Shown here piece after piece: positions 3,131-56,169 of a DNA stretch of 64,000 nt (its first letter is position 1; each line of letters starts with the position of its first letter). A model generated the notes under the pieces. The model worked only from the letters and a program-made list of their open reading frames with translations. It was not told where the DNA came from and did not search any database. The stretch is from a virus, in UHGV virus genome UHGV-0211740. One strand, 5' to 3'. The position numbers and the translations under genes are program-made.

Positions 3131-3847
3131 ATGGCTACGCTTTATAGTGATATATTGATGGACCCGCAGACAGGCGATTTGGCAATAGACAACGGTCTTG
3201 AGTTGATAGATTCAAACCAAATAAGTCTGCGCCAGCGCCTGTGGATGAGGTTTAACACATGGAAGGGGAGCTGGTACTTTGACGAGTTGTTTGGCTTCCC
3301 TTATATGGACTTTCTTAGTAAGAAGGTCATGAAGACTGTTCTTGATAACAAGATTATGGAGGTGGCAAGACAGGAGCCTGATGTGCTAAACATCATAAAC
3401 TTCCAGTCTACCATGGATCGAAGATCGAGAACATACCAGGCGTTCTTTGAGGTTGTTACCAAGGAGAACGAAATTGTAAGACTGGCCTTCGTAGGTCTTG
3501 ATCAGTTCACTTACCCACAACCTGATGATGGAGCAACTTCTCTTTGTGATGATGAAGGCTGGATTAAGTGGGCTAATAAGCTGTACTACCTAATCAACTT
3601 CAGACTACCGAGGACAGGTGATGCCACATGGTGGAACCAGTATGCTGGCCCTGAGATGGAAAACCCGATCCCTGTAGGCTCTTTGTTGACTCAGGATAAA
3701 GATCTGCTGATGACTGAGGCAGAACAAACCATTAACCGTAATACCTGGACGCTTGCTCCAGATGAGCGCGAATACTCTGGCGTTATTGCTACCTCTAATG
3801 ATGAGGCTATTGCCAACCAGTCTGGTCGTGCTATTGATGTTAACTAA
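3131..3847 (+). CDS. baseplate wedge-like protein (gp25/GPW-like N-terminal motif)
   Basis: N-terminal LYSDI...QRLWMRFNTWKGSWYFDELFGFPY resembles the gp25/GPW signature as recalled; no search run. Confidence 0.4.
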   Translation: MATLYSDILMDPQTGDLAIDNGLELIDSNQISLRQRLWMRFNTWKGSWYFDELFGFPYMDFLSKKVMKTVLDNKIMEVARQEPDVLNIINFQSTMDRRSRTYQAFFEVVTKENEIVRLAFVGLDQFTYPQPDDGATSLCDDEGWIKWANKLYYLINFRLPRTGDATWWNQYAGPEMENPIPVGSLLTQDKDLLMTEAEQTINRNTWTLAPDEREYSGVIATSNDEAIANQSGRAIDVN

Positions 3848-3856
3848 GGAGAAATC

Positions 3857-4525
3857 ATGGCTGTAGCTTATCCTACAATACCAATTCCAGATCTTGAAGA
3901 TGCAGAAACAGTCTTGAGCGATGACTTCTTGGTTGTCAACCAGACTGATGGGACAAGAAAGGCTAAGATTGATGATGTTGTCAATGATCTTAGTATTACT
4001 AAGATAGTTTATTTCACAGAGGGTGGTTATCTTAAAAGTAAGAAAGATTTTGCCTACGATCCTGAGACTAAGCGCTACTACACGTGGAACGGGGATTATC
4101 CTAAAATAATCCTTCCTGATTCCACTGTGGAGGGGGCAGGAGGGGTATCTGCAAAAGCCTGGTCTGTTTTTGGAGAGCTTGCTGCAACTTCTTCAGGCAG
4201 GATAGTTGACTACGGGTCTATCGGCGGTCAGTTGGACATGGATCTTAACGTTGCAGACACATTTAAAGTTAGGCTTACTTCGAATACCACAATCTCTTTT
4301 GAAAATCAAACAGAGGGGCTTAACGAGGTGGCAAGAACTGTGACTGTATGCATTACCCAGTCCTCTGGCGGCAACAAGGTTTATTGGCCTGACAATGTTA
4401 AATGGGCCTACGGAAGAGATCCTATCCTAACATTCACAGCTGGTGCAACAGACATTTTCAAGTTAGAAACCTACGATAATGGACTAACTTGGTACGGGGC
4501 ACTGATTATAGCAGGAGCTATCTAA
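3857..4525 (+). CDS. tail fibre/spike protein with shared N-terminal anchor domain
   Basis: AAGGAG RBS; N-terminal ~70 aa homologous to N-terminus of the 7160 gene (DDxLVVxQxDxTRxxKIxDVV ... FxEGG ... DFAY). Confidence 0.5.
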   Translation: MAVAYPTIPIPDLEDAETVLSDDFLVVNQTDGTRKAKIDDVVNDLSITKIVYFTEGGYLKSKKDFAYDPETKRYYTWNGDYPKIILPDSTVEGAGGVSAKAWSVFGELAATSSGRIVDYGSIGGQLDMDLNVADTFKVRLTSNTTISFENQTEGLNEVARTVTVCITQSSGGNKVYWPDNVKWAYGRDPILTFTAGATDIFKLETYDNGLTWYGALIIAGAI

Positions 4526-49666: not shown

Positions 49667-50431
49667 TTGAAATTTATCTATAAAGAACACTACCACAAAG
49701 GTGTTGTGTGGAGTCTATTTGACGGGTCTGGCGGTGCAGTCATTGACTGGGCAAAAGCTGGGTATCTGTGCCTGTGCTTTAACGCAGAAGGTGCTGACCA
49801 CGGCAGTTATGCAGAGGTGATAACCGATCATCCAAATATTCACTATGTAGATTATTGGATTGATCCATGGTTTCCTCAGGAAACTTTCTGCATGTACCCA
49901 GCTCCGGACTTTGTTCTTGCATTTCCTCCGTGCACTCACTTAGCGGTGTCCGGTGCTGCACACTTTAAGAAGAAACTGGCTAAGGATCCGCTGATCCAAA
50001 TTAATGCTGTAAAGGATGCTCGGGTTGCGGAAGAGTTGGGAGAGATTTACGATTGCCCGTGGCATGTAGAGAATCCTGTTGGAGTTATGTCCACATTGTG
50101 GCGCAAACCTGACTACCGTTTTCACCCTTCTGATTATGGCGGGTATTTACCGGAAGATGATGTAAACCCATGGTTTCCTGAATTTATAGCTCCACGTGAT
50201 GCCTATCCAAAAATAACTTGCGGATGGATAGGTAATGGATTTATAATCCCAGCCACAAAACCTGTCCCGCAAATAGTTGATGTGGTTAGCGGTTATTCCA
50301 TGCAACACGCTAAGCTAGGTGGAAAAAGTGCAAGGACGAAGATGATTCGAAGCCTTACACCACGTGGCTGGGCAAAAGCAGTATTCTTAGCAAACGAGCC
50401 TGCAGTAAGGAGCAGAATTAATGGGAAGTAA
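49667..50431 (+). CDS. DNA cytosine-5 methyltransferase-like protein (short, atypical)
   Basis: ORF track 49637..50431; TTG 49667 after AGGAG; motif I LFDGSGG, motif IV-like FPPCTHLAVSG, motif VI-like VENPVG; start uncertain. Confidence 0.4.
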   Translation: MKFIYKEHYHKGVVWSLFDGSGGAVIDWAKAGYLCLCFNAEGADHGSYAEVITDHPNIHYVDYWIDPWFPQETFCMYPAPDFVLAFPPCTHLAVSGAAHFKKKLAKDPLIQINAVKDARVAEELGEIYDCPWHVENPVGVMSTLWRKPDYRFHPSDYGGYLPEDDVNPWFPEFIAPRDAYPKITCGWIGNGFIIPATKPVPQIVDVVSGYSMQHAKLGGKSARTKMIRSLTPRGWAKAVFLANEPAVRSRINGK

Positions 50432-52499
50432 ATTCATGGCATCTGCATATAACCGTTTCGGTGAGCCAAACCCGAAAGCAACTAAGTATAAAAGTGGGGG
50501 AAGTGTGAAACGAGACTATCGTGATGAAAAAGAAGTTGAAACTGTAGAGACTGTTTTAGAAAATACTAAAATTGTTCCTGTTCCACAACAAAATATCGGA
50601 CTGATGGCTGCACAGTATTTCGGTGTACGATCATCCCTATCCCAAGAGGATGGTGTAACTGTTACTGCCACCTACTTCCCGTATTATGACCGCTACGGGA
50701 ATCTATCTGGCTTTAAAAAGCGCGACTGGACAATCCCTAAAGAGCAAAGGGGCCATTTCTCAGTTGTTGGCATAGTAAAAGCCAACTCCCAGATGTTTGG
50801 TCAAAAGCTGTGTGCATCCTCCAACAACCGTAAGCAGATTAACGTTTGTGAGGGGGAAGGTGATGTTATTGCAGCGTGGCAGGCTGCATATCAGATACAA
50901 GTAAAAGGAATTCTCACCAATGCCAAGGCCCCAGCAAAGGTTAAGCAGTGGGCTAAAGAGGTCCAGGACGGGATCGATGCAGTTATCAACGGGGGTGATC
51001 TGGCAGGAAAACCATGTCTACCTTTTGTTGGAATTAACTGTGGGTGTGCAAACGCAGTAGATACTTTTGCAAACAATGAGAAATTTATCCGTAGCTACGG
51101 AACAGTGGTCCTTGCAATGGACAACGATGCAGCTAACGAGGTAGAGAAGCAAAAACACGTTATCAAAGGTGTTGAAGCCACACATAATATTGCAGCATTT
51201 TTGATGGCTGATAATGTTTACCATGTGGAATACCCTGGTGAGGTGAACGACCCTGACGGTGTAAAAGATATCCGTGACATGCTGAAGGCTAAAAAGCTGG
51301 AAGATATTGTCAACATGTTCCGTCACCCAGTTAAATATGTGCCTGATGCTGTATCTGATTTAGAAGACTTTTCCATTGAATCTCTTCGTAAGAAGACTTC
51401 CAATGGCGTGGATATCAGTGCAGAGTTCCCTAAACTACAGAAGATGCTGAAAGGACTCCACAAAGGCACCTTGATGATGCTGACAGGCCCATCTGGTGGT
51501 GGTAAAACAACTGTAGCCAAGAAACTGGAACACTGCATTGCAAGATATTTGATGGATCCGACATGCCCTAAAGCCGATGATTATGAAGAGGATGATCGCC
51601 TGTGTATGATCCACCTTGAAGAGGATCCTGAGGAAGCAATAAACTCTCTATACGCTAACCAGTTGGGGTTTGATGTTAAAGAGTTTGTTGAAGACCCTAG
51701 TCAGTTCCTGACCGATCAGGAGCATGCTGAGATTCACCAATCTTGGGCCAAAGCTGGAAAAATCAAAGTGTTCAAGCATTTTGGTTCTATCCCTGTAGAT
51801 GAGCTGATCACTAAGCTTAAACAAATGGTGTGTCTGTATCACTGCCGTTACATTGTGCTGGATCACCTGTCCATGGTAATTTCAGGGCTTAATGTTAAGG
51901 ATGAGCGAAAAGAACTTGACATGGCTATGACTCAACTAGCCGCGTTCTGTAAGCAGTTTAATGTATTTATCTTGGTGATCGCTCACCTGAAACGCACAGA
52001 GATTGTGCCTCCAAAGGACAAGGATGGGAATCCGTTACCTTTCTGGTATCCTGTACGAAAAGAGAACCTTCGAGGTAGTGCTGGATTGGAACAACTTAGC
52101 TGGGTAGTTGTTGGGGTAGAGGCAGAAGAGATGGTGGATCGTTCCCGTGGACGTGTCCGGCTGGTAGGTCTTAAAAACCGCCCAGCAAAAACGTTAGGCA
52201 TTGCGGACACCTTAGTTATGGATCCTCACACAGGTAAGTTCCATGATGCCAGCAATTGGTACTGGGACAAAGAAATGCAGATGTTCACAGACGGCGAAGG
52301 TGGGGAGGTTGTTTGGAGACCTCAAGCTATGTTTGAGGATCAAGAGCACGCAGTTGTAGAAACACCTGTAGGCAGGGTTGTGGCTGATAAGGTTGTAACT
52401 CCTACTGTTAACCCTGTTGACACACAAGAAGACCTTCCGTATGATGATCCGTCCTCTGACCCTGTTCCCGGTTTTGAAGACGATGAAACACCTTTTTAA
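50421..52499 (+). CDS. primase-helicase (TOPRIM plus DnaB-family SF4 helicase)
   Basis: TOPRIM CEGEGD and MDNDAANE; helicase Walker A GPSGGGKTT, Walker B IVLDHLS. Confidence 0.7.
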   Translation: MGSKFMASAYNRFGEPNPKATKYKSGGSVKRDYRDEKEVETVETVLENTKIVPVPQQNIGLMAAQYFGVRSSLSQEDGVTVTATYFPYYDRYGNLSGFKKRDWTIPKEQRGHFSVVGIVKANSQMFGQKLCASSNNRKQINVCEGEGDVIAAWQAAYQIQVKGILTNAKAPAKVKQWAKEVQDGIDAVINGGDLAGKPCLPFVGINCGCANAVDTFANNEKFIRSYGTVVLAMDNDAANEVEKQKHVIKGVEATHNIAAFLMADNVYHVEYPGEVNDPDGVKDIRDMLKAKKLEDIVNMFRHPVKYVPDAVSDLEDFSIESLRKKTSNGVDISAEFPKLQKMLKGLHKGTLMMLTGPSGGGKTTVAKKLEHCIARYLMDPTCPKADDYEEDDRLCMIHLEEDPEEAINSLYANQLGFDVKEFVEDPSQFLTDQEHAEIHQSWAKAGKIKVFKHFGSIPVDELITKLKQMVCLYHCRYIVLDHLSMVISGLNVKDERKELDMAMTQLAAFCKQFNVFILVIAHLKRTEIVPPKDKDGNPLPFWYPVRKENLRGSAGLEQLSWVVVGVEAEEMVDRSRGRVRLVGLKNRPAKTLGIADTLVMDPHTGKFHDASNWYWDKEMQMFTDGEGGEVVWRPQAMFEDQEHAVVETPVGRVVADKVVTPTVNPVDTQEDLPYDDPSSDPVPGFEDDETPF

Positions 52500-52557: not shown

Positions 52558-54981
52558 ATGAGTATGTGGTCTTTCGACCTGGAGGCCTCTGGTTTACTAG
52601 AAGACCTAGATCTTTATTATCACTGCGGCTTGTTTAAAGAGTTGAATAAGAACCGTTTTATGCTGTTCCTTCCTCTAAATGACCGCACACACTACTCTGA
52701 AGAGGATATAGAGAAGGCTAAGAACTTTATTCTGGCAAAGAAAACTCTTTATAAAGATTTTGAAGTTCGCATAGCAGATTTTTCAGAGTTGGAAGGTTGG
52801 CTTACAGGCAATTCTGACTGGTCACCCACAGCTTTGAACTGCCACAACTGCTACAGCTACGACTTTATGCTGATGGAGAGATTGTCCGGTATTCATTTTG
52901 ATATGTTCCGTGATCCTAAGTGTATGGGAACTATCAACGACCACCAGGTTAATCTGTTTGATACATTGGCTATGAGCCGAATCTTGTGGCCTGACCGACC
53001 TTTGCCAAAAGGTTGTCCAGACTCAGTATTCAACCCAGTTACTAAGAAAATGCAACCTGTTGGACCTCACGGTCTTATGGCATGGGGCTATGCTCTTGGT
53101 AACCAAAAAGTTCAAATTGATGACTGGCGCGAGCTTCCGTTGTGGAAGTATGTGGATCGTGTGTTCGAGGACGTTATCATCCAAGAGCTACTCTGGAAAG
53201 AGTTGGTAGCGGAATCAAAAGGTGTATTCTACGGCAAATCTGACATGCAGAACTTTATGTACGATCCTGCCAAAGAGAAGCCGAAAGGGTTCAAAAAGAT
53301 CACCTGGAAGAATGCATTGCGTCGAGGCATGCTGCAGCACTTCCTGATGGAGCTGCAGGCCCGTCAGGGTGTGTATTTTGACATAGACGGGGCTATTGCT
53401 TTACGTGACCGCTGTGATGCGTGGATGAAGGAGATCGCTGATCGTGTTGAACCTCAACTCCCTTTAAAAGAGTTATCAATATCTCAGCGGCCTAAATTCC
53501 CTGAAAAGCCGTTTAACCAAGATGGGACAATTTCCAATAACGGCTGGAAATGGTTAAAAGATAAACTTGGCTATCCTGTGGACATGAGCGCTTTAGAGTT
53601 CAAAGCCCCGCCTAAGCGAGCATTTACCTCCACAGGAGATGTCAGTAAAATGGGGATAAAATGGTGTGAAGAGATGGGCTGCAAAGACCCAGACAAGATG
53701 GCTGATTTCTTGAGGGGGTATATTAAAGGCACCTCCACACCACACCCTTTACCTAAAGAGCTGATGGATCAGGCAATAAGTGATCTGCAGCAGAAGCGAA
53801 TGCCGGAATGCAAGATACCTATGAAAATCAGCAATCAGGACGATATTAAGCGATACCTGATCAGTGCTGGTTGGCTTCCAACAATGTGGAGAACTAAAGA
53901 TGTAACTAAAGACAGTAAGAAGAAAGCTTTACCTGATGCAGATGTTGATGCACGAGTATATGCATATATGGACGAGCTTTTAGAGTCAGAGTATTGTGAC
54001 CTGATTATCAACTTCTGGAACAAAACTGATGCTAAGTTCCAGACAACTGTGCACAAGTTCCGAAGCTTCCCTAACTCCGAAAGGATTAAAAAAGAAGTAT
54101 TCGGGAAAATACGTAGAAAAGCCAGGGCACTTATCACTTCTCCACAACTGAAAGATACGTTTGGGCACCTGTGCCCGAATCTTGAAAAATTGAACGGAGA
54201 AATGGCTAAGGACATCGTCTTGTGGTTATCCTTGCGAAACCGCAGGTCGGTCCTTGATCCAATCAAGGAGGATAAGGTTGATACTGGTCTTCTTAATCAT
54301 CCACGTTTGAAGATTGACCATAAGCTTCCTGCTAAAAGCTCTGGATTAACAAACACTTCCAGACAGAAACACAGTATTTGTGCAAACATGCCTAAACCAT
54401 CTCCGAAAGTGGTTATGGGTAAAGAGATGCGTAGTCTGTGGGGTGTTCCTCCTGGATACTTTGAGATCGGTATTGACGGGTCCAACTTAGAGCAGCTTAT
54501 CGGGGCTTGGGGTGCCTTTGAGTTCGACAACGGCCTGTATTATGATGTTGTAAGTAACGGGGACGCGCACCAAAACAATGCTGAGGCGTATACAAAAGTA
54601 GCAGGAAGAGAGGTATCTCGTAATGACGGTAAACCTATCACGTATGGGGTTATGTACGGGGCACAAAAAGATAAAGTTGCAGACATGCTGGATATCTCTC
54701 CAGAATTGGGACAAAAGGTAATCGATGCTCTCTGGGATGCTAACCCCGGCCTTAAGGGGCGTAAAGAGGACTTGGAGAAATTCTGGGAAGCAACAGGTAA
54801 GAAATTTATCTACTCTTTTGATGGTCATGCCATCTGGACCCGCTCTAAACACTCTTTGCTTAATGCATACCAACAAAATGGCGGTGCATCGTTGTGTGAC
54901 TTGGTTGGGATACTCATGCACCACCAGATGGTGAAGCGTGGGTGGTATGATGAAGGTGTTCGTCGTATTATTTATTACCAT
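52558..54981 (+). CDS. DNA polymerase, family A, exon 1 (3'-5' exo domain to first half of motif C)
   Basis: Exo I SFDLEASG; motif B RNDGKPITYGVMYGAQ; ends ...RRIIYYH then an in-frame stop. Confidence 0.75.
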
Positions 54982-55257
54982 AAATAACATTGTGGCTTCA
55001 TAGAGCAATCTATGTCGAATAACCTCTTTAACTGCGGGAAGCCTAAACCTTATGGCAAGGTAATCCGCAACGAAGCGCTCAAAAGAGCGAACGCTCAGAG
55101 GCCATTCCGAAAGGAAGTAGACCAGCAAGTGCGGTCGAAATGGGAGGGTTCCTATGGTTGTTTACCCTAGGAATGTGAGATGGTCCGATCCTACGTGAAA
55201 ACGTATGGCTATGCACGTAATGGTGCGGGGTAGCTTAACGACCTACCTGAACTATTG
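54982..55257 (+). other. putative group I self-splicing intron (276 nt, no ORF) in the DNA polymerase gene
   Basis: Exons in the same frame; joining gives RRIIYYH-DEYQLQV (motif C); 5' exon ends in U, intron ends in G; IGS GUGG; P-like ACUGCGGGAA and Q-like AAUCCGCAAC. Confidence 0.6.
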
Positions 55258-55611
55258 GATGAGTACCAACTTCAAGTACCTGATACACCTAAATATAAAA
55301 CTGTGTACACCTTCGACACAATTGAAGAGTTGGAGGAGTTCAAAGCCAAGCAGGAAGCCAAACTTCATGTGTTCGACGGTCATAAGTACAAAAAGGCACG
55401 CAAGGATGAGGATGGAAACGAAGTAGTTGACAGTAATGGGAATACGGTATACGATCCTATCCTGAACGATGACGGAAAGCTTGAACTTATCTGGAGCCCT
55501 GTGGGTGAAATGGTGGTACATTGCTTCTGGCAAGCGTCTAAAATGATGGGAGTCCCATTCCAGATCACAGGTGAGTACTTGTGTGGTCGTAACTGGGGTG
55601 ATTGTCACTAA
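55258..55611 (+). CDS. DNA polymerase, family A, exon 2 (second half of motif C to C-terminus)
   Basis: In frame with exon 1; begins DEYQLQV; ends GRNWGDCH, like the Pol I terminus. Confidence 0.65.
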   Translation, partial: DEYQLQVPDTPKYKTVYTFDTIEELEEFKAKQEAKLHVFDGHKYKKARKDEDGNEVVDSNGNTVYDPILNDDGKLELIWSPVGEMVVHCFWQASKMMGVPFQITGEYLCGRNWGDCH

Positions 55612-55660
55612 TGTAAACTATCAGCACAGGGAGGTGCTGTTGAGCAGAGAGGAGACTTTT

Positions 55661-55945
55661 ATGGTAGTAGAACCAACAAAAACATTTACATCCATGACTA
55701 TTCCTGTTATTATGCAGGTGAAATGCGTTCAGGTGTCCCAAGTATGGCCAGGTACTAAAATACCAACAGGGCCAGATTTCTTTCAAGTTGACAAAGTGTA
55801 CAATGTCTGGAAGGCACCAGACTGCTACCCTTTCATTAAAGATGACCGTGGAATGCTGTGGTATCTGGGAAATGATTTGACACTACATCTCGGAAATGCT
55901 ATTATTGCAGTGTTCCAGCTTAATAAGAAGGAGACAGATCAATGA
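55661..55945 (+). CDS. hypothetical small protein
   Basis: ORF track 55571..55945; ATG 55661 after GAGAGGAG. Confidence 0.45.
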   Translation: MVVEPTKTFTSMTIPVIMQVKCVQVSQVWPGTKIPTGPDFFQVDKVYNVWKAPDCYPFIKDDRGMLWYLGNDLTLHLGNAIIAVFQLNKKETDQ

Positions 55946-56169
55946 TAACTTTTGTTAAAGCTACGTTTGTAGAAGAAAAGATGACAGACCTATCGTTCTT
56001 TAAAGAAGGTAAGGTCTACAAGGTTTATTACGACAAGGATCGCAGAAACAATATGATCGAAGACGAGGAAGGTATCGCCTGGTTTATCTCCCATCTGGCA
56101 AACGGTGAGTATCATATCTATGGGACCACCCTGCTTGCCAAGTTTGTAGCTGTGGAAGAGAGCCTATGA
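55942..56169 (+). CDS. hypothetical small protein
   Basis: ORF track; AAGGAGA RBS. Confidence 0.45.
   Translation: MITFVKATFVEEKMTDLSFFKEGKVYKVYYDKDRRNNMIEDEEGIAWFISHLANGEYHIYGTTLLAKFVAVEESL

What the first reader, a model, noticed from the sequence alone, without database searches (positions are those of the whole stretch)
54982..55257. DNA polymerase gene split inside motif C by a compact group I-like intron
The family A polymerase ORF stops right after ...RRIIYYH; 276 nt later an ORF in the same frame begins DEYQLQV and ends GRNWGDCH. Joining them gives RRIIYYH-DEYQLQV, which parallels the Pol I motif C (RMIMQVHDELVFEV), and the end resembles the Pol I C-terminus. The insert is a multiple of 3, follows an exon U, ends in G, has a GUGG guide-like sequence that can pair with the exon end, and has P-like (ACUGCGGGAA) and Q-like (AAUCCGCAAC) elements. 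It carries no homing endonuclease ORF.
Basis: partly seen in the sequence, partly recalled or inferred. Interest (0 to 1): 0.75.

Follow-up and report, generated by a model that had tools for sequence, protein, structure and literature searches.

The report
Group I intron in phage polymerase
The DNA polymerase gene of this rV5-like coliphage is interrupted, right before a catalytic aspartate, by a 276-base self-splicing (group I) intron with no endonuclease gene; this is real but ordinary, since the same intron is already annotated in closely related phages.

Summary
The observation and the interpretation both hold. Window 54982..55257 (276 nt, + strand) is a group I intron in the family A DNA polymerase gene of a Vequintavirus (rV5-like) coliphage.

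- **RNA model:** Rfam RF00028 hits it above the gathering score (60.8 vs 50 bits, E 6e-13).
- **Boundaries:** intronless sister phages read ...TACCAT|GATGAG... with exactly these 276 nt missing.
- **Protein:** the joined 925-aa product is colinear with, and 98.7% identical to, an uninterrupted polymerase. It aligns to T7 DNA polymerase across the junction at H653|D654, which is motif C.
- **Structure:** a hand model has P1-P10 plus P7.1/P7.2 (subgroup IA) and P9.1/P9.2. Across 12 homologues, 96.6% of cells are paired and 44 of 73 pairs show compensatory changes.
- **Endonuclease:** there is no homing-endonuclease ORF in the intron and no related HNH gene anywhere in the window.

The same intron (97-100% identical) occurs in 24 GenBank phage records. 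LL12 annotates it as "intron-interrupted", and MaxTheCat joins the CDS across it. Relatives carry an HNH-bearing intron at the same site, and the homologue in phage CB7 was shown to splice by RT-PCR. The T7-like phages PhiI and W31 have an intron at site 881, the motif C His (H881) in E. coli Pol I numbering.

Verdict: supported, already known, low interest. Splicing of this exact copy remains untested.

The parts
52558..54981 (+). Exon 1 of the family A DNA polymerase gene (808 codons, ends ...RRIIYYH)
   Evidence: ORF list. Pfam DNA_pol_A and T7 polymerase alignment. Identical exon end in intronless alleles.
54982..55257 (+). Group I intron, 276 nt, without an ORF, subgroup IA architecture
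   Evidence: RF00028 at 60.8 bits, E 5.8e-13. Exact absence in Murica and rV5_ev156. Covariation over 12 homologues.
55258..55611 (+). Exon 2 of the polymerase gene (DEYQLQV...GRNWGDCH plus stop codon); its first codon is the motif C catalytic Asp
54985..54987 (+). In-frame UAA stop at intron positions 4-6; unspliced mRNA gives a polymerase truncated before the catalytic Asp
   Evidence: Read from the sequence. AAAUAA or AAGUAA is kept in most homologues.
54978..54995 (+). P1: exon CCAU (54978-81) plus intron AA (54982-83) paired with UUGUGG (54990-95). U54981.G54992 is the splice-site wobble. The internal guide sequence is 54988-54995.
   Evidence: cmscan alignment. Also in the MFE fold. Invariant in 12 homologues.
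54999..55014 (+). P2 hairpin, 6 bp, GCAA (GNRA) tetraloop
   Evidence: 5 of 6 pairs show compensatory changes and 100% of cells are paired.
55023..55028 (+). P3 5' strand (CCUCUU); pairs with 55142-55147
   Evidence: 4 of 6 pairs compensatory, 100% paired. Found in the MFE fold.
55033..55069 (+).
   Evidence: P4 is 100% paired. P5 is the weakest helix (72%).
55071..55093 (+). P6 (55071-72 with 55092-93) and P6a (55076-80 with 55085-89, AAAA loop). In relatives the HNH ORF sits in this loop.
   Evidence: All 7 pairs compensatory. ORF position in FFH2, SSE121 and L024.
55098..55104 (+). P7 5' strand (G55098, bulged A55099, GGCCA). It pairs with 55181-55186 (UGGUCC). G55100-C55185 is the inferred guanosine-binding pair.
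   Evidence: 100% paired, 2 pairs compensatory. The assignment of the G-binding pair is an inference by analogy with Tetrahymena G264-C311.
55105..55136 (+). P7.1 (55105-08 with 55113-16, GAAA loop) and P7.2 (55120-23 with 55133-36): the peripheral pair typical of subgroup IA
   Evidence: 34-nt insertion relative to the Rfam model. Covariation. Both are in the MFE fold.
55142..55147 (+). P3 3' strand (GGGAGG)
55149..55173 (+). P8 hairpin (9 positions, one U x C mismatch)
   Evidence: 7 of 9 pairs compensatory..
55181..55186 (+). P7 3' strand (UGGUCC, part of the S element)
55190..55208 (+). P9 hairpin with GAAA tetraloop. The Rfam match ends inside it at G55207.
55213..55247 (+). P9.1 (55213-16 with 55223-26) and P9.2 (55229-33 with 55243-47, loop CUUAACGAC), lying beyond the Rfam model
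   Evidence: Compensatory changes in both. P9.2 is in the MFE fold.
55257..55257 (+). Terminal guanosine (omega G), the 3' splice site
   Evidence: Intronless alleles fix the boundary. The G is invariant in all 22 family members extracted.
55258..55261 (+). P10 partner: exon 2 GAUG can pair with CAUU at 54988-54991
   Evidence: Read from the sequence. Inference only, not tested by covariation because exon 2 GAUGA is invariant.

Best explanation
Window 54982..55257 is a functional group I intron without an ORF, with subgroup IA architecture most like the phage IA2 type. It sits in the family A DNA polymerase gene of a Vequintavirus (rV5-like) phage, between the His and the catalytic Asp codons of motif C.

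Inferred mechanism, from the standard group I pathway:
1. The pre-mRNA folds into the P3-P9 core.
2. The guide sequence GUGG pairs with exon CCAU to form P1, with a U.G wobble at the splice site.
3. A free guanosine bound in P7 attacks after U54981.
4. Exon 2 (GAUG) docks on the guide sequence as P10.
5. The exon 1 3'-OH attacks after the terminal G55257 and joins ...YYH to DEYQ...

This yields a 925-aa polymerase. Unspliced RNA is translated only to ...YYHK*, which lacks the catalytic Asp, so splicing should be required for phage replication. The intron has no homing endonuclease. It is either a copy that lost the HNH gene or one that never gained it. The HNH gene sits in the P6 loop of the intron found at the same site in sister phages.

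Shown here: identity as a group I intron, exact boundaries, conserved and covarying structure, restoration of the reading frame. Inferred: catalytic activity and the order of steps.
For: - RF00028 scores 60.8 bits against a gathering score of 50, E 5.8e-13, full-length model match, and is the only Rfam hit in the window. ORF-less homologues score 70-91 bits and an intronless allele gives no hit.
- Intronless Murica and rV5_ev156 read TATTACCAT|GATGAGTACC, so the insert is exactly 54982-55257 with no ambiguity.
- The joined CDS is 2778 nt, the same length as Murica's uninterrupted gene (record 124152-126929), and 98.7% identical over 612 aa.
- phmmer aligns rriiyyhdeyql with T7 polymerase ymawvHDEiqv ending at residue 658, which places the junction at H653|D654.
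- The hand structure on a 12-sequence MAFFT alignment has 96.6% of cells paired against 36-41% for slid controls. 44 of 73 pairs change on both sides, and 0 of 500 shuffles reach the observed values for four of the five measures (1 of 500 for further pair types).
- An unconstrained MFE fold recovers P1, P2, P3, P4, P6a, P7.1, P7.2, P8, P9 and P9.2, with z = -2.33.
- 24 phage records carry the intron at 97-100% identity. LL12 annotates 'intron-interrupted gene' and MaxTheCat joins the CDS.
- The homologous intron at the same YH|DE site in phage CB7 (the one carrying CB7_50) is reported to splice by RT-PCR and Sanger sequencing (PMC7344957).
Against: No RNA-level evidence exists for this copy or for any 276-nt copy; splicing is inferred. 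P1 and the splice-site nucleotides are invariant, so covariation says nothing about them. P5 is poorly supported (72% paired) and is drawn differently by the MFE fold. P8 has a U x C mismatch and P9 a bulged U in this copy. The structure was derived from the window sequence itself, which favours it in the slid-column control. An in-frame TTG (55255-55257) immediately precedes exon 2, so independent translation of exon 2 cannot be excluded from sequence alone.
Confidence: 0.93

Rival explanations
1. Split gene without splicing. The insert is a dead or non-splicing remnant, and the polymerase is made as two polypeptides (808 aa + K, and 118 aa starting at TTG 55255) that assemble after translation. 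A precedent is the Aeh1 NrdA gene split by mobE.
For: An in-frame TTG lies directly before exon 2. Several GenBank records annotate two separate polymerase CDSs. Precedents for genes in pieces, and for a CB7 HNH insertion that did not splice, are cited in PMC7344957.
Against: No Shine-Dalgarno-like sequence precedes 55255. The break would fall between the adjacent His and catalytic Asp of motif C. A dead insert would not keep 96.6% base pairing with 44 compensatory pairs, nor score 60.8 bits on RF00028. The CB7 homologue at the same site does splice.
Confidence: 0.03
2. The intron splices in vivo but is not autonomously self-splicing. This compact copy would need a protein cofactor or co-transcriptional help. 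It has a short P5, a P8 mismatch and a bulge in P9.
For: P5 is the least supported helix. This copy lacks the long P5 and P7.1 extensions present in the 328-nt and 843-nt relatives. Its Rfam score (60.8) is the lowest among the ORF-less family members scored (70-91 bits).
Against: All core helices and the P7 pocket are intact. From my own recollection, unverified because the paper could not be retrieved, the PhiI and W31 introns self-splice under mild conditions in vitro.
Confidence: 0.1
3. It is an intein, a translational bypass element or an assembly artefact rather than an RNA intron.
For: The length is a multiple of three, so the insert does not shift the reading frame.
Against: There is an in-frame UAA at intron positions 4-6 and there are further stops, so it cannot be an intein. 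The same 276 nt occur in 24 independent phage records, so it is not an artefact. The group I covariance-model hit explains it fully.
Confidence: 0.005

Closest known systems
The polymerase intron of Escherichia phage V5/rV5, LL12, MaxTheCat, RudolfGeigy, PDX and others (Vequintavirus)
   Same: Same gene and same site, 276 nt, 97.1-100% identical. LL12 annotates 'intron-interrupted gene; intron splice site predicted based on homology to AKU44295', and MaxTheCat has a joined CDS.
   Different: Nothing of substance; there are 7 or fewer substitutions. The rV5 reference record and the rV5 paper missed it: they give two CDSs plus ORFs inside the intron, and a '775-aa polymerase'.
HNH-containing polymerase intron of FFH2, FV3, isim, WalterGehring (843 nt) and its ORF-less derivatives in HMD-6 and JLBYU08 (328/329 nt)
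   Same: Same insertion site and same helices. The first 50 nt are 84-96% identical and the last 68 nt 90-96% identical.
   Different: The core P4-P8 is only ~66% identical and has longer P5 and P7.1 arms. The 843-nt form carries a 168-aa HNH ORF in the P6 loop. The window copy has a 5-bp P6a with an AAAA loop and no ORF remnant.
Pectobacterium phage CB7 polymerase intron carrying HNH gene CB7_50 (Certrevirus)
   Same: Homologous intron (about 75% identity over the matched parts) at the same ...YYH|DEYQ site. Splicing was shown by RT-PCR and sequencing (PMC7344957).
   Different: 687 nt with an HNH ORF. CB7's polymerase has a second intron upstream; the window gene has only one.
[quoted passage not shown]
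   Same: Family A polymerase gene. Insertion at 'site 881' in E. coli Pol I numbering (PMC3428280). From established knowledge of Pol I, residue 881 is the motif C His and D882 the catalytic Asp. This corresponds to T7 H653|D654, the position found here. From my recollection of the 2004 abstract, they are subgroup IA2 with an HNH ORF in P6a, the same loop used in the FFH2-type relatives.
   Different: They carry the endonuclease I-TslI; this one carries none. Sequence homology to PhiI/W31 could not be tested because the sequences and the paper were not retrievable.
Group I introns of SPO1, SP82, Bastille and Pf-WMP3 (site 674) and phiL7 (site 676) polymerase genes
   Same: [quoted passage not shown] Pf-WMP3's intron also begins with a stop codon (PMC3428280).
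   Different: They use a different insertion site in the finger subdomain, about 200 residues upstream, and all encode HNH nicking endonucleases.

Membership tests
Group I catalytic intron (Rfam RF00028) | Covariance-model score at or above the curated gathering threshold | tested here: met
   60.8 bits against 50, E 5.8e-13, model positions 1-253 of 253.
Group I catalytic intron (Rfam RF00028) | P1 formed by an internal guide sequence and the exon 1 end, with a U.G wobble at the 5' splice site | tested here: met
   CCAU (54978-81) pairs with GUGG (54992-95), with U54981.G54992, in the cmscan alignment and the MFE fold. It is invariant in homologues, so there is no covariation evidence.
Group I catalytic intron (Rfam RF00028) | Conserved core P3-P4-P6 and P7-P8-P9 with the P3/P7 pseudoknot (P, Q, R, S elements) | tested here: met
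   All helices can be drawn. P3, P4, P6, P7 and P9 are 100% paired, P6a 95% and P8 94%, with compensatory changes in every one.
Group I catalytic intron (Rfam RF00028) | Terminal guanosine at the 3' splice site and precise excision that restores the host reading frame | tested here: met
   G55257 is the last intron base. Intronless alleles lack exactly 54982-55257. The joined protein is colinear with uninterrupted orthologues and with T7 polymerase.
Group I catalytic intron (Rfam RF00028) | Guanosine-dependent self-splicing of the RNA | not testable with these tools
   This needs in vitro transcription with GTP, or RT-PCR. Only a homologue (the CB7 intron carrying CB7_50) has RT-PCR evidence.
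Subgroup IA (IA2-type phage introns) | Extra helices P7.1 and P7.2 between the P7 5' strand and the P3 3' strand | tested here: met
   A 34-nt insertion at that point relative to the Rfam model folds into two hairpins, and both covary.
Subgroup IA (IA2-type phage introns) | Formal assignment to IA2 rather than IA1 or IA3 (Michel-Westhof criteria, or similarity to the T4 td, nrdB and sunY introns) | tested here: inconclusive
   No subgroup-specific model was available. A family member (L024) shares 77-80% identical core segments with T4-like nrdB introns that carry I-TevIII. The window intron itself gave no such hit.
Mobile (homing) group I intron | Intron-encoded homing endonuclease gene | tested here: not met
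   The internal ORFs of 52 and 73 aa have no Pfam match. tblastn of seven related HNH proteins against the whole window gave nothing better than E 0.018.
Mobile (homing) group I intron | Patchy presence or absence at one site among close relatives | tested here: met
   Intronless, 276-nt, 328/329-nt and 843-nt states all occur among Vequintavirus genomes that are 92-94% identical in the flanks. The intron (97.5%) is more conserved than the flanking exons (91-94%).
Collaborative homing (ORF-less intron plus neighbouring free-standing endonuclease gene) | A free-standing endonuclease gene adjacent to the intron-bearing gene | tested here: not met
   Only 58 nt separate the primase/helicase gene from the polymerase gene. 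The downstream ORFs have no Pfam match. No HNH homologue is found in the window. FFH2 does have a free-standing HNH gene upstream of its polymerase gene.
Intein | Insert translated in frame with the host protein, with no stop codons | tested here: not met
   UAA at 54985-54987, the second in-frame codon of the insert.

The most novel reading that the evidence does not exclude
The 276-nt intron may be more than a passive remnant. It could be a distinct mosaic lineage: its ends are shared with the FFH2-type HNH intron, while its 3' half is closest to the Seunavirus type. It could persist in about a fifth of sequenced Vequintavirus genomes because occupying the site protects the polymerase gene from the HNH endonuclease of co-infecting relatives, or because that endonuclease mobilises it in trans. 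On this reading an endonuclease-free intron acts as an immunity allele in phage-phage competition.
Probability: 0.2. Interest if true: 0.4.

Novelty: already known. Interest (0 to 1): 0.13.

Why it matters
The main value is for annotation. The polymerase of this phage is one 925-aa protein encoded by join(52558..54981, 55258..55611). It is not a truncated polymerase followed by several small 'hypothetical proteins', which is how the rV5 reference record and many other records still show it. The locus also illustrates a well-known theme. Group I introns and their HNH endonucleases repeatedly target the codons of the catalytic core of phage family A polymerases, here the His|Asp of motif C. All stages of the cycle coexist in one phage genus: empty site, intron without ORF, and intron with ORF. 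No new biology is implied.

Tried and rejected
- **PhiI/W31 comparison.** I tried to get the PhiI/W31 intron sequences and the 2004 and 2009 Bonocora and Shub papers, to test direct homology with the T7-like introns. The accession and the papers are not held.
- **T7-like phages.** I looked for an intron-bearing T7-like phage by searching with the T3 polymerase 3' end. T3 and KP32 are uninterrupted and none of the listed hits showed an insertion of intron size.
- **IMG/VR members.** I asked whether the IMG/VR members with an AFLVWYH exon context are T7-like. Their polymerase is under 60% identical to any named phage, and the closest are ~47-kb Vibrio phages, so this was not informative. Their intron core instead matched T4-type nrdB and rV5-type terminase introns.
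- **Homing endonuclease gene.** I searched for one in or near the polymerase gene and across the window. None was found.
- **Other explanations.** Intein, translational bypass and assembly artefact were rejected.
- **3' boundary.** The Rfam 3' end at 55207 was rejected as the splice site. It would give the frame AMHVMVRG..., which has no motif C, and it contradicts the intronless alleles.
- **Literature.** Searches found no paper describing this ORF-less Vequintavirus intron.

Full report
**What is there.** The window is from a Vequintavirus (rV5-like) coliphage. Window 54000-56000 is 98.6% identical to Vequintavirinae sp. EcoIv14a_Aya and about 94% identical to phage V5/rV5 and many relatives. 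A primase/helicase gene (50421-52499) is followed by an 809-aa ORF (52558-54987) that ends ...RRIIYYHK*. A 118-aa ORF in the same frame reads (M)DEYQLQV...GRNWGDCH* and ends at 55611.

**Is it a group I intron?** A scan of the whole window against Rfam 15 gave one hit at gathering level. It was RF00028 (Intron_gpI) at 54972-55207 on the + strand, 60.8 bits against a threshold of 50, E 5.8e-13, covering the full model (repeated locally).

- It pairs exon CCAU with GUGG (54992-95), putting U54981.G54992 at the 5' splice site.
- It assigns UGCGGG and UCCGCA as the two strands of P4.
- It shows a 34-nt insertion between the 5' strand of P7 and the 3' strand of P3. That is the position of P7.1/P7.2 in subgroup IA introns.

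The model match stops at G55207 because RF00028 has no P9.1/P9.2. Splicing there would give a frame with no motif C.

**Boundaries.** Intronless Vequintavirus alleles exist. In many records the 2001-nt query matches a stretch of exactly 1725 nt, which is 2001 minus 276. Murica and rV5_ev156 read ...TATTACCAT|GATGAGTACCAA.... Shifting the boundary by one base in either direction does not reproduce that junction, so the insert is exactly 54982-55257.

The joined CDS is 2778 nt, the same length as Murica's uninterrupted gene. Its product is 98.7% identical to Murica's over 612 aa and colinear through the junction.

**Motif C.** phmmer of the joined protein against PDB sequences finds T7 DNA polymerase (E 1.7e-16). 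The alignment runs through the junction: rriiyyhdeyql against ymawvhdeiqv, ending at T7 residue 658. This places the intron between H653 and D654. By established knowledge of family A polymerases, D654 is one of the two catalytic carboxylates (T7 D475/D654, E. coli Pol I D705/D882). Pfam DNA_pol_A also covers residues 620-823 across the junction. Unspliced RNA is translated only to ...YYHK*, because the intron begins AAA UAA.

**Structure.** I drew a model by hand. Intron position i corresponds to window coordinate 54981 + i.

| Helix | Intron positions | Note |
|---|---|---|
| P1 | exon -4..-1 and i1-2 with i9-14 | U.G wobble at the splice site |
| P2 | 18-23 / 28-33 | GCAA loop |
| P3 | 42-47 / 161-166 | |
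| P4 | 52-57 / 83-88 | |
| P5 | 61-63 / 77-79 | weakest helix |
| P6 | 90-91 / 111-112 | |
| P6a | 95-99 / 104-108 | AAAA loop |
| P7 | 117, 119-123 / 200-205 | A118 bulged |
| P7.1 | 124-127 / 132-135 | GAAA loop |
| P7.2 | 139-142 / 152-155 | |
| P8 | 168-176 / 184-192 | one U x C mismatch |
| P9 | 209-215 / 220-227 | GAAA loop |
| P9.1 | 232-235 / 242-245 | |
| P9.2 | 248-252 / 262-266 | |
| omega G | 276 | 3' splice site |
| P10 (possible) | exon 2 GAUG with i7-10 | 4 bp |

An unconstrained MFE fold recovers most of these helices (-89.1 kcal/mol, z = -2.33).

For comparative support I collected homologues at the same YH|DE site:
- From GenBank phages: rV5, HMD-6, JLBYU08, TH18, Vibrio phages K412 and qdvp001, SSE121, CB7 and FFH2.
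- From IMG/VR, with the pattern TACCATAANNAAN{0,3}TTGTGGCTT: 24 true loci and 1 false positive.

On a plain MAFFT alignment of 12 of them, the hand structure gave these results:
- 96.6% of cells are paired, against 36-41% when the 3' partners are slid by 1-3 columns.
- 44 of 73 pairs change on both sides.
- 0 of 500 shuffles reach the observed value for four of the five measures, and 1 of 500 for further pair types.
- Every helix except the invariant P1 has compensatory pairs.
- P5 is the weakest helix (72% paired).

RF00028 also hits the ORF-less homologues at 70-91 bits and gives no hit in the intronless Murica locus.

**No endonuclease.** The two ORFs inside the insert have no Pfam match, and neither do the four ORFs downstream. 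The larger ORFs between 41 and 62 kb are replication and other proteins, with no HNH domain. tblastn of seven related HNH proteins against the whole window gave nothing better than E 0.018. These proteins were the FFH2 intronic and free-standing ones, CB7_48, CB7_50 and CB7_52, SSE121 gp070 and T3 gp5.3.

**Context in relatives.** Four states occur at this site within the genus:
- empty site;
- the 276-nt intron, in 24 records at 97-100% identity;
- a 328/329-nt intron without an ORF (HMD-6, JLBYU08, JEP1, SYGMH1);
- an 843-nt intron whose P6 loop holds a 168-aa HNH gene (FFH2 and others).

The 276-nt type and the FFH2 type share near-identical ends: 84-96% over the first 50 nt and 90-96% over the last 68 nt. 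Their cores are only 66% identical, with many indels. The 3' half of the window intron is closest to the Seunavirus (SSE121) intron (75.6%). Between the window and rV5 the intron is 97.5% identical while the flanking 300 nt of exon are 91-94% identical. That pattern fits recent lateral spread, or stronger constraint on the RNA than on the exons.

**What is known.**
- GenBank LL12 annotates this gene as 'intron-interrupted gene; intron splice site predicted based on homology to AKU44295'. The BASEL phage MaxTheCat carries a joined CDS.
- The rV5 reference record still shows two polymerase CDSs with 'hypothetical proteins' inside the intron. The rV5 paper describes a 775-aa polymerase and mentions introns only in the terminase gene (PMC3606486).
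- In the related phage CB7, the homologous intron at the same site (the one carrying CB7_50) was shown to splice by RT-PCR and Sanger sequencing (PMC7344957; homology and site).
- PMC3428280 states that the PhiI and W31 (T7-like) polymerase introns are at site 881 in E. coli numbering, the motif C His. The SPO1, SP82, Bastille and Pf-WMP3 introns are at 674 and the phiL7 intron at 676.
- Four literature searches found no paper devoted to the ORF-less Vequintavirus intron.

**Verdict.** The element is a typical phage group I intron with subgroup IA architecture. It has no endonuclease gene, sits at a known intron site in motif C of a family A polymerase, and is already annotated in close relatives. 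Splicing of this particular copy is inferred, with high confidence, from:
- the covariance-model hit;
- the exact boundaries;
- the covariation;
- its persistence in many viable isolates, whose polymerase would otherwise lack a catalytic Asp;
- the RT-PCR evidence for a homologue.

Novelty: already known. Interest: low. The practical outcome is the correct gene model, join(52558..54981, 55258..55611).

Noticed in passing
window 54982-55257 compared with L002, L007, L009: Mosaic intron. The first 50 nt (84-96%) and last 68 nt (90-96%) are close to identical to the FFH2/JLBYU08/HMD-6-type intron, but the core (i51-208) is only 66% identical with 70 gap columns. This suggests recombination between two intron lineages that occupy the same site.
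   Followed up: partly
window 54682-55557 compared with L001 (rV5): The intron is more conserved (97.5%) than the 300 nt of polymerase exon on either side (93.7% and 91.3%). This fits recent lateral transfer of the intron among Vequintavirus genomes.
   Followed up: partly
L001 (NC_011041, rV5) 3489-3966: The rV5 RefSeq record annotates the intron region as two 'hypothetical proteins' (gp222, gp221) and the polymerase as two separate CDSs. The rV5 paper calls the polymerase 775 aa. Many other records do the same. This is a recurring annotation error.
   Followed up: yes
loci L016-L040 (IMG/VR): The same intron 5' end (AAAUAA..UUGUGGCUU) follows a Tyr-His codon pair in very different family A polymerases. 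Exon contexts include RRIIYYH, TQMMHYH, QQMIAYH, AFLVWYH, VSMIEYH and FLMIVYH. Introns occur both with and without HNH ORFs. One intron family therefore targets the YH|DE site across distant phage groups.
   Followed up: partly
L017 (IMG/VR copy of Salmonella phage PVP-SE1), 919-nt intron: In this family member the Q and R elements are only 38 nt apart. The ORF must therefore lie outside P6, further 3', unlike the FFH2, SSE121 and L024 types.
   Followed up: no
L010 (CB7) intron positions 153-536: The CB7_50 HNH ORF starts upstream of the P4 3' strand (Q element) and runs through the 5' strand of P6. The coding sequence therefore overlaps ribozyme core elements.
   Followed up: no
window 55124-55132 and 55234-55242 (loops of P7.2 and P9.2): The loop sequences CAAGUG (L7.2) and UAACGA (L9.2) are nearly invariant across the family while their stems covary. 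They are candidate tertiary-contact motifs.
   Followed up: no
GenBank MG0656xx records: 16 records named 'Campylobacter phage' with host C. jejuni are about 94% identical to rV5-like coliphages over the polymerase region. This suggests mislabelled or contaminant assemblies.
   Followed up: no
H179, KM190144 Escherichia phage Av-05, terminase large subunit: Intron positions 8-148 match (72.5%) an element in the terminase gene of an rV5-like phage. The terminase intron of this group is therefore related to the polymerase intron. The terminase gene is not in this window, where RF00028 hits only once.
   Followed up: no
L002 (FFH2) 328-1062: FFH2 has an additional free-standing HNH endonuclease gene between the primase/helicase and polymerase genes. 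The window has only a 58-nt spacer there.
   Followed up: partly
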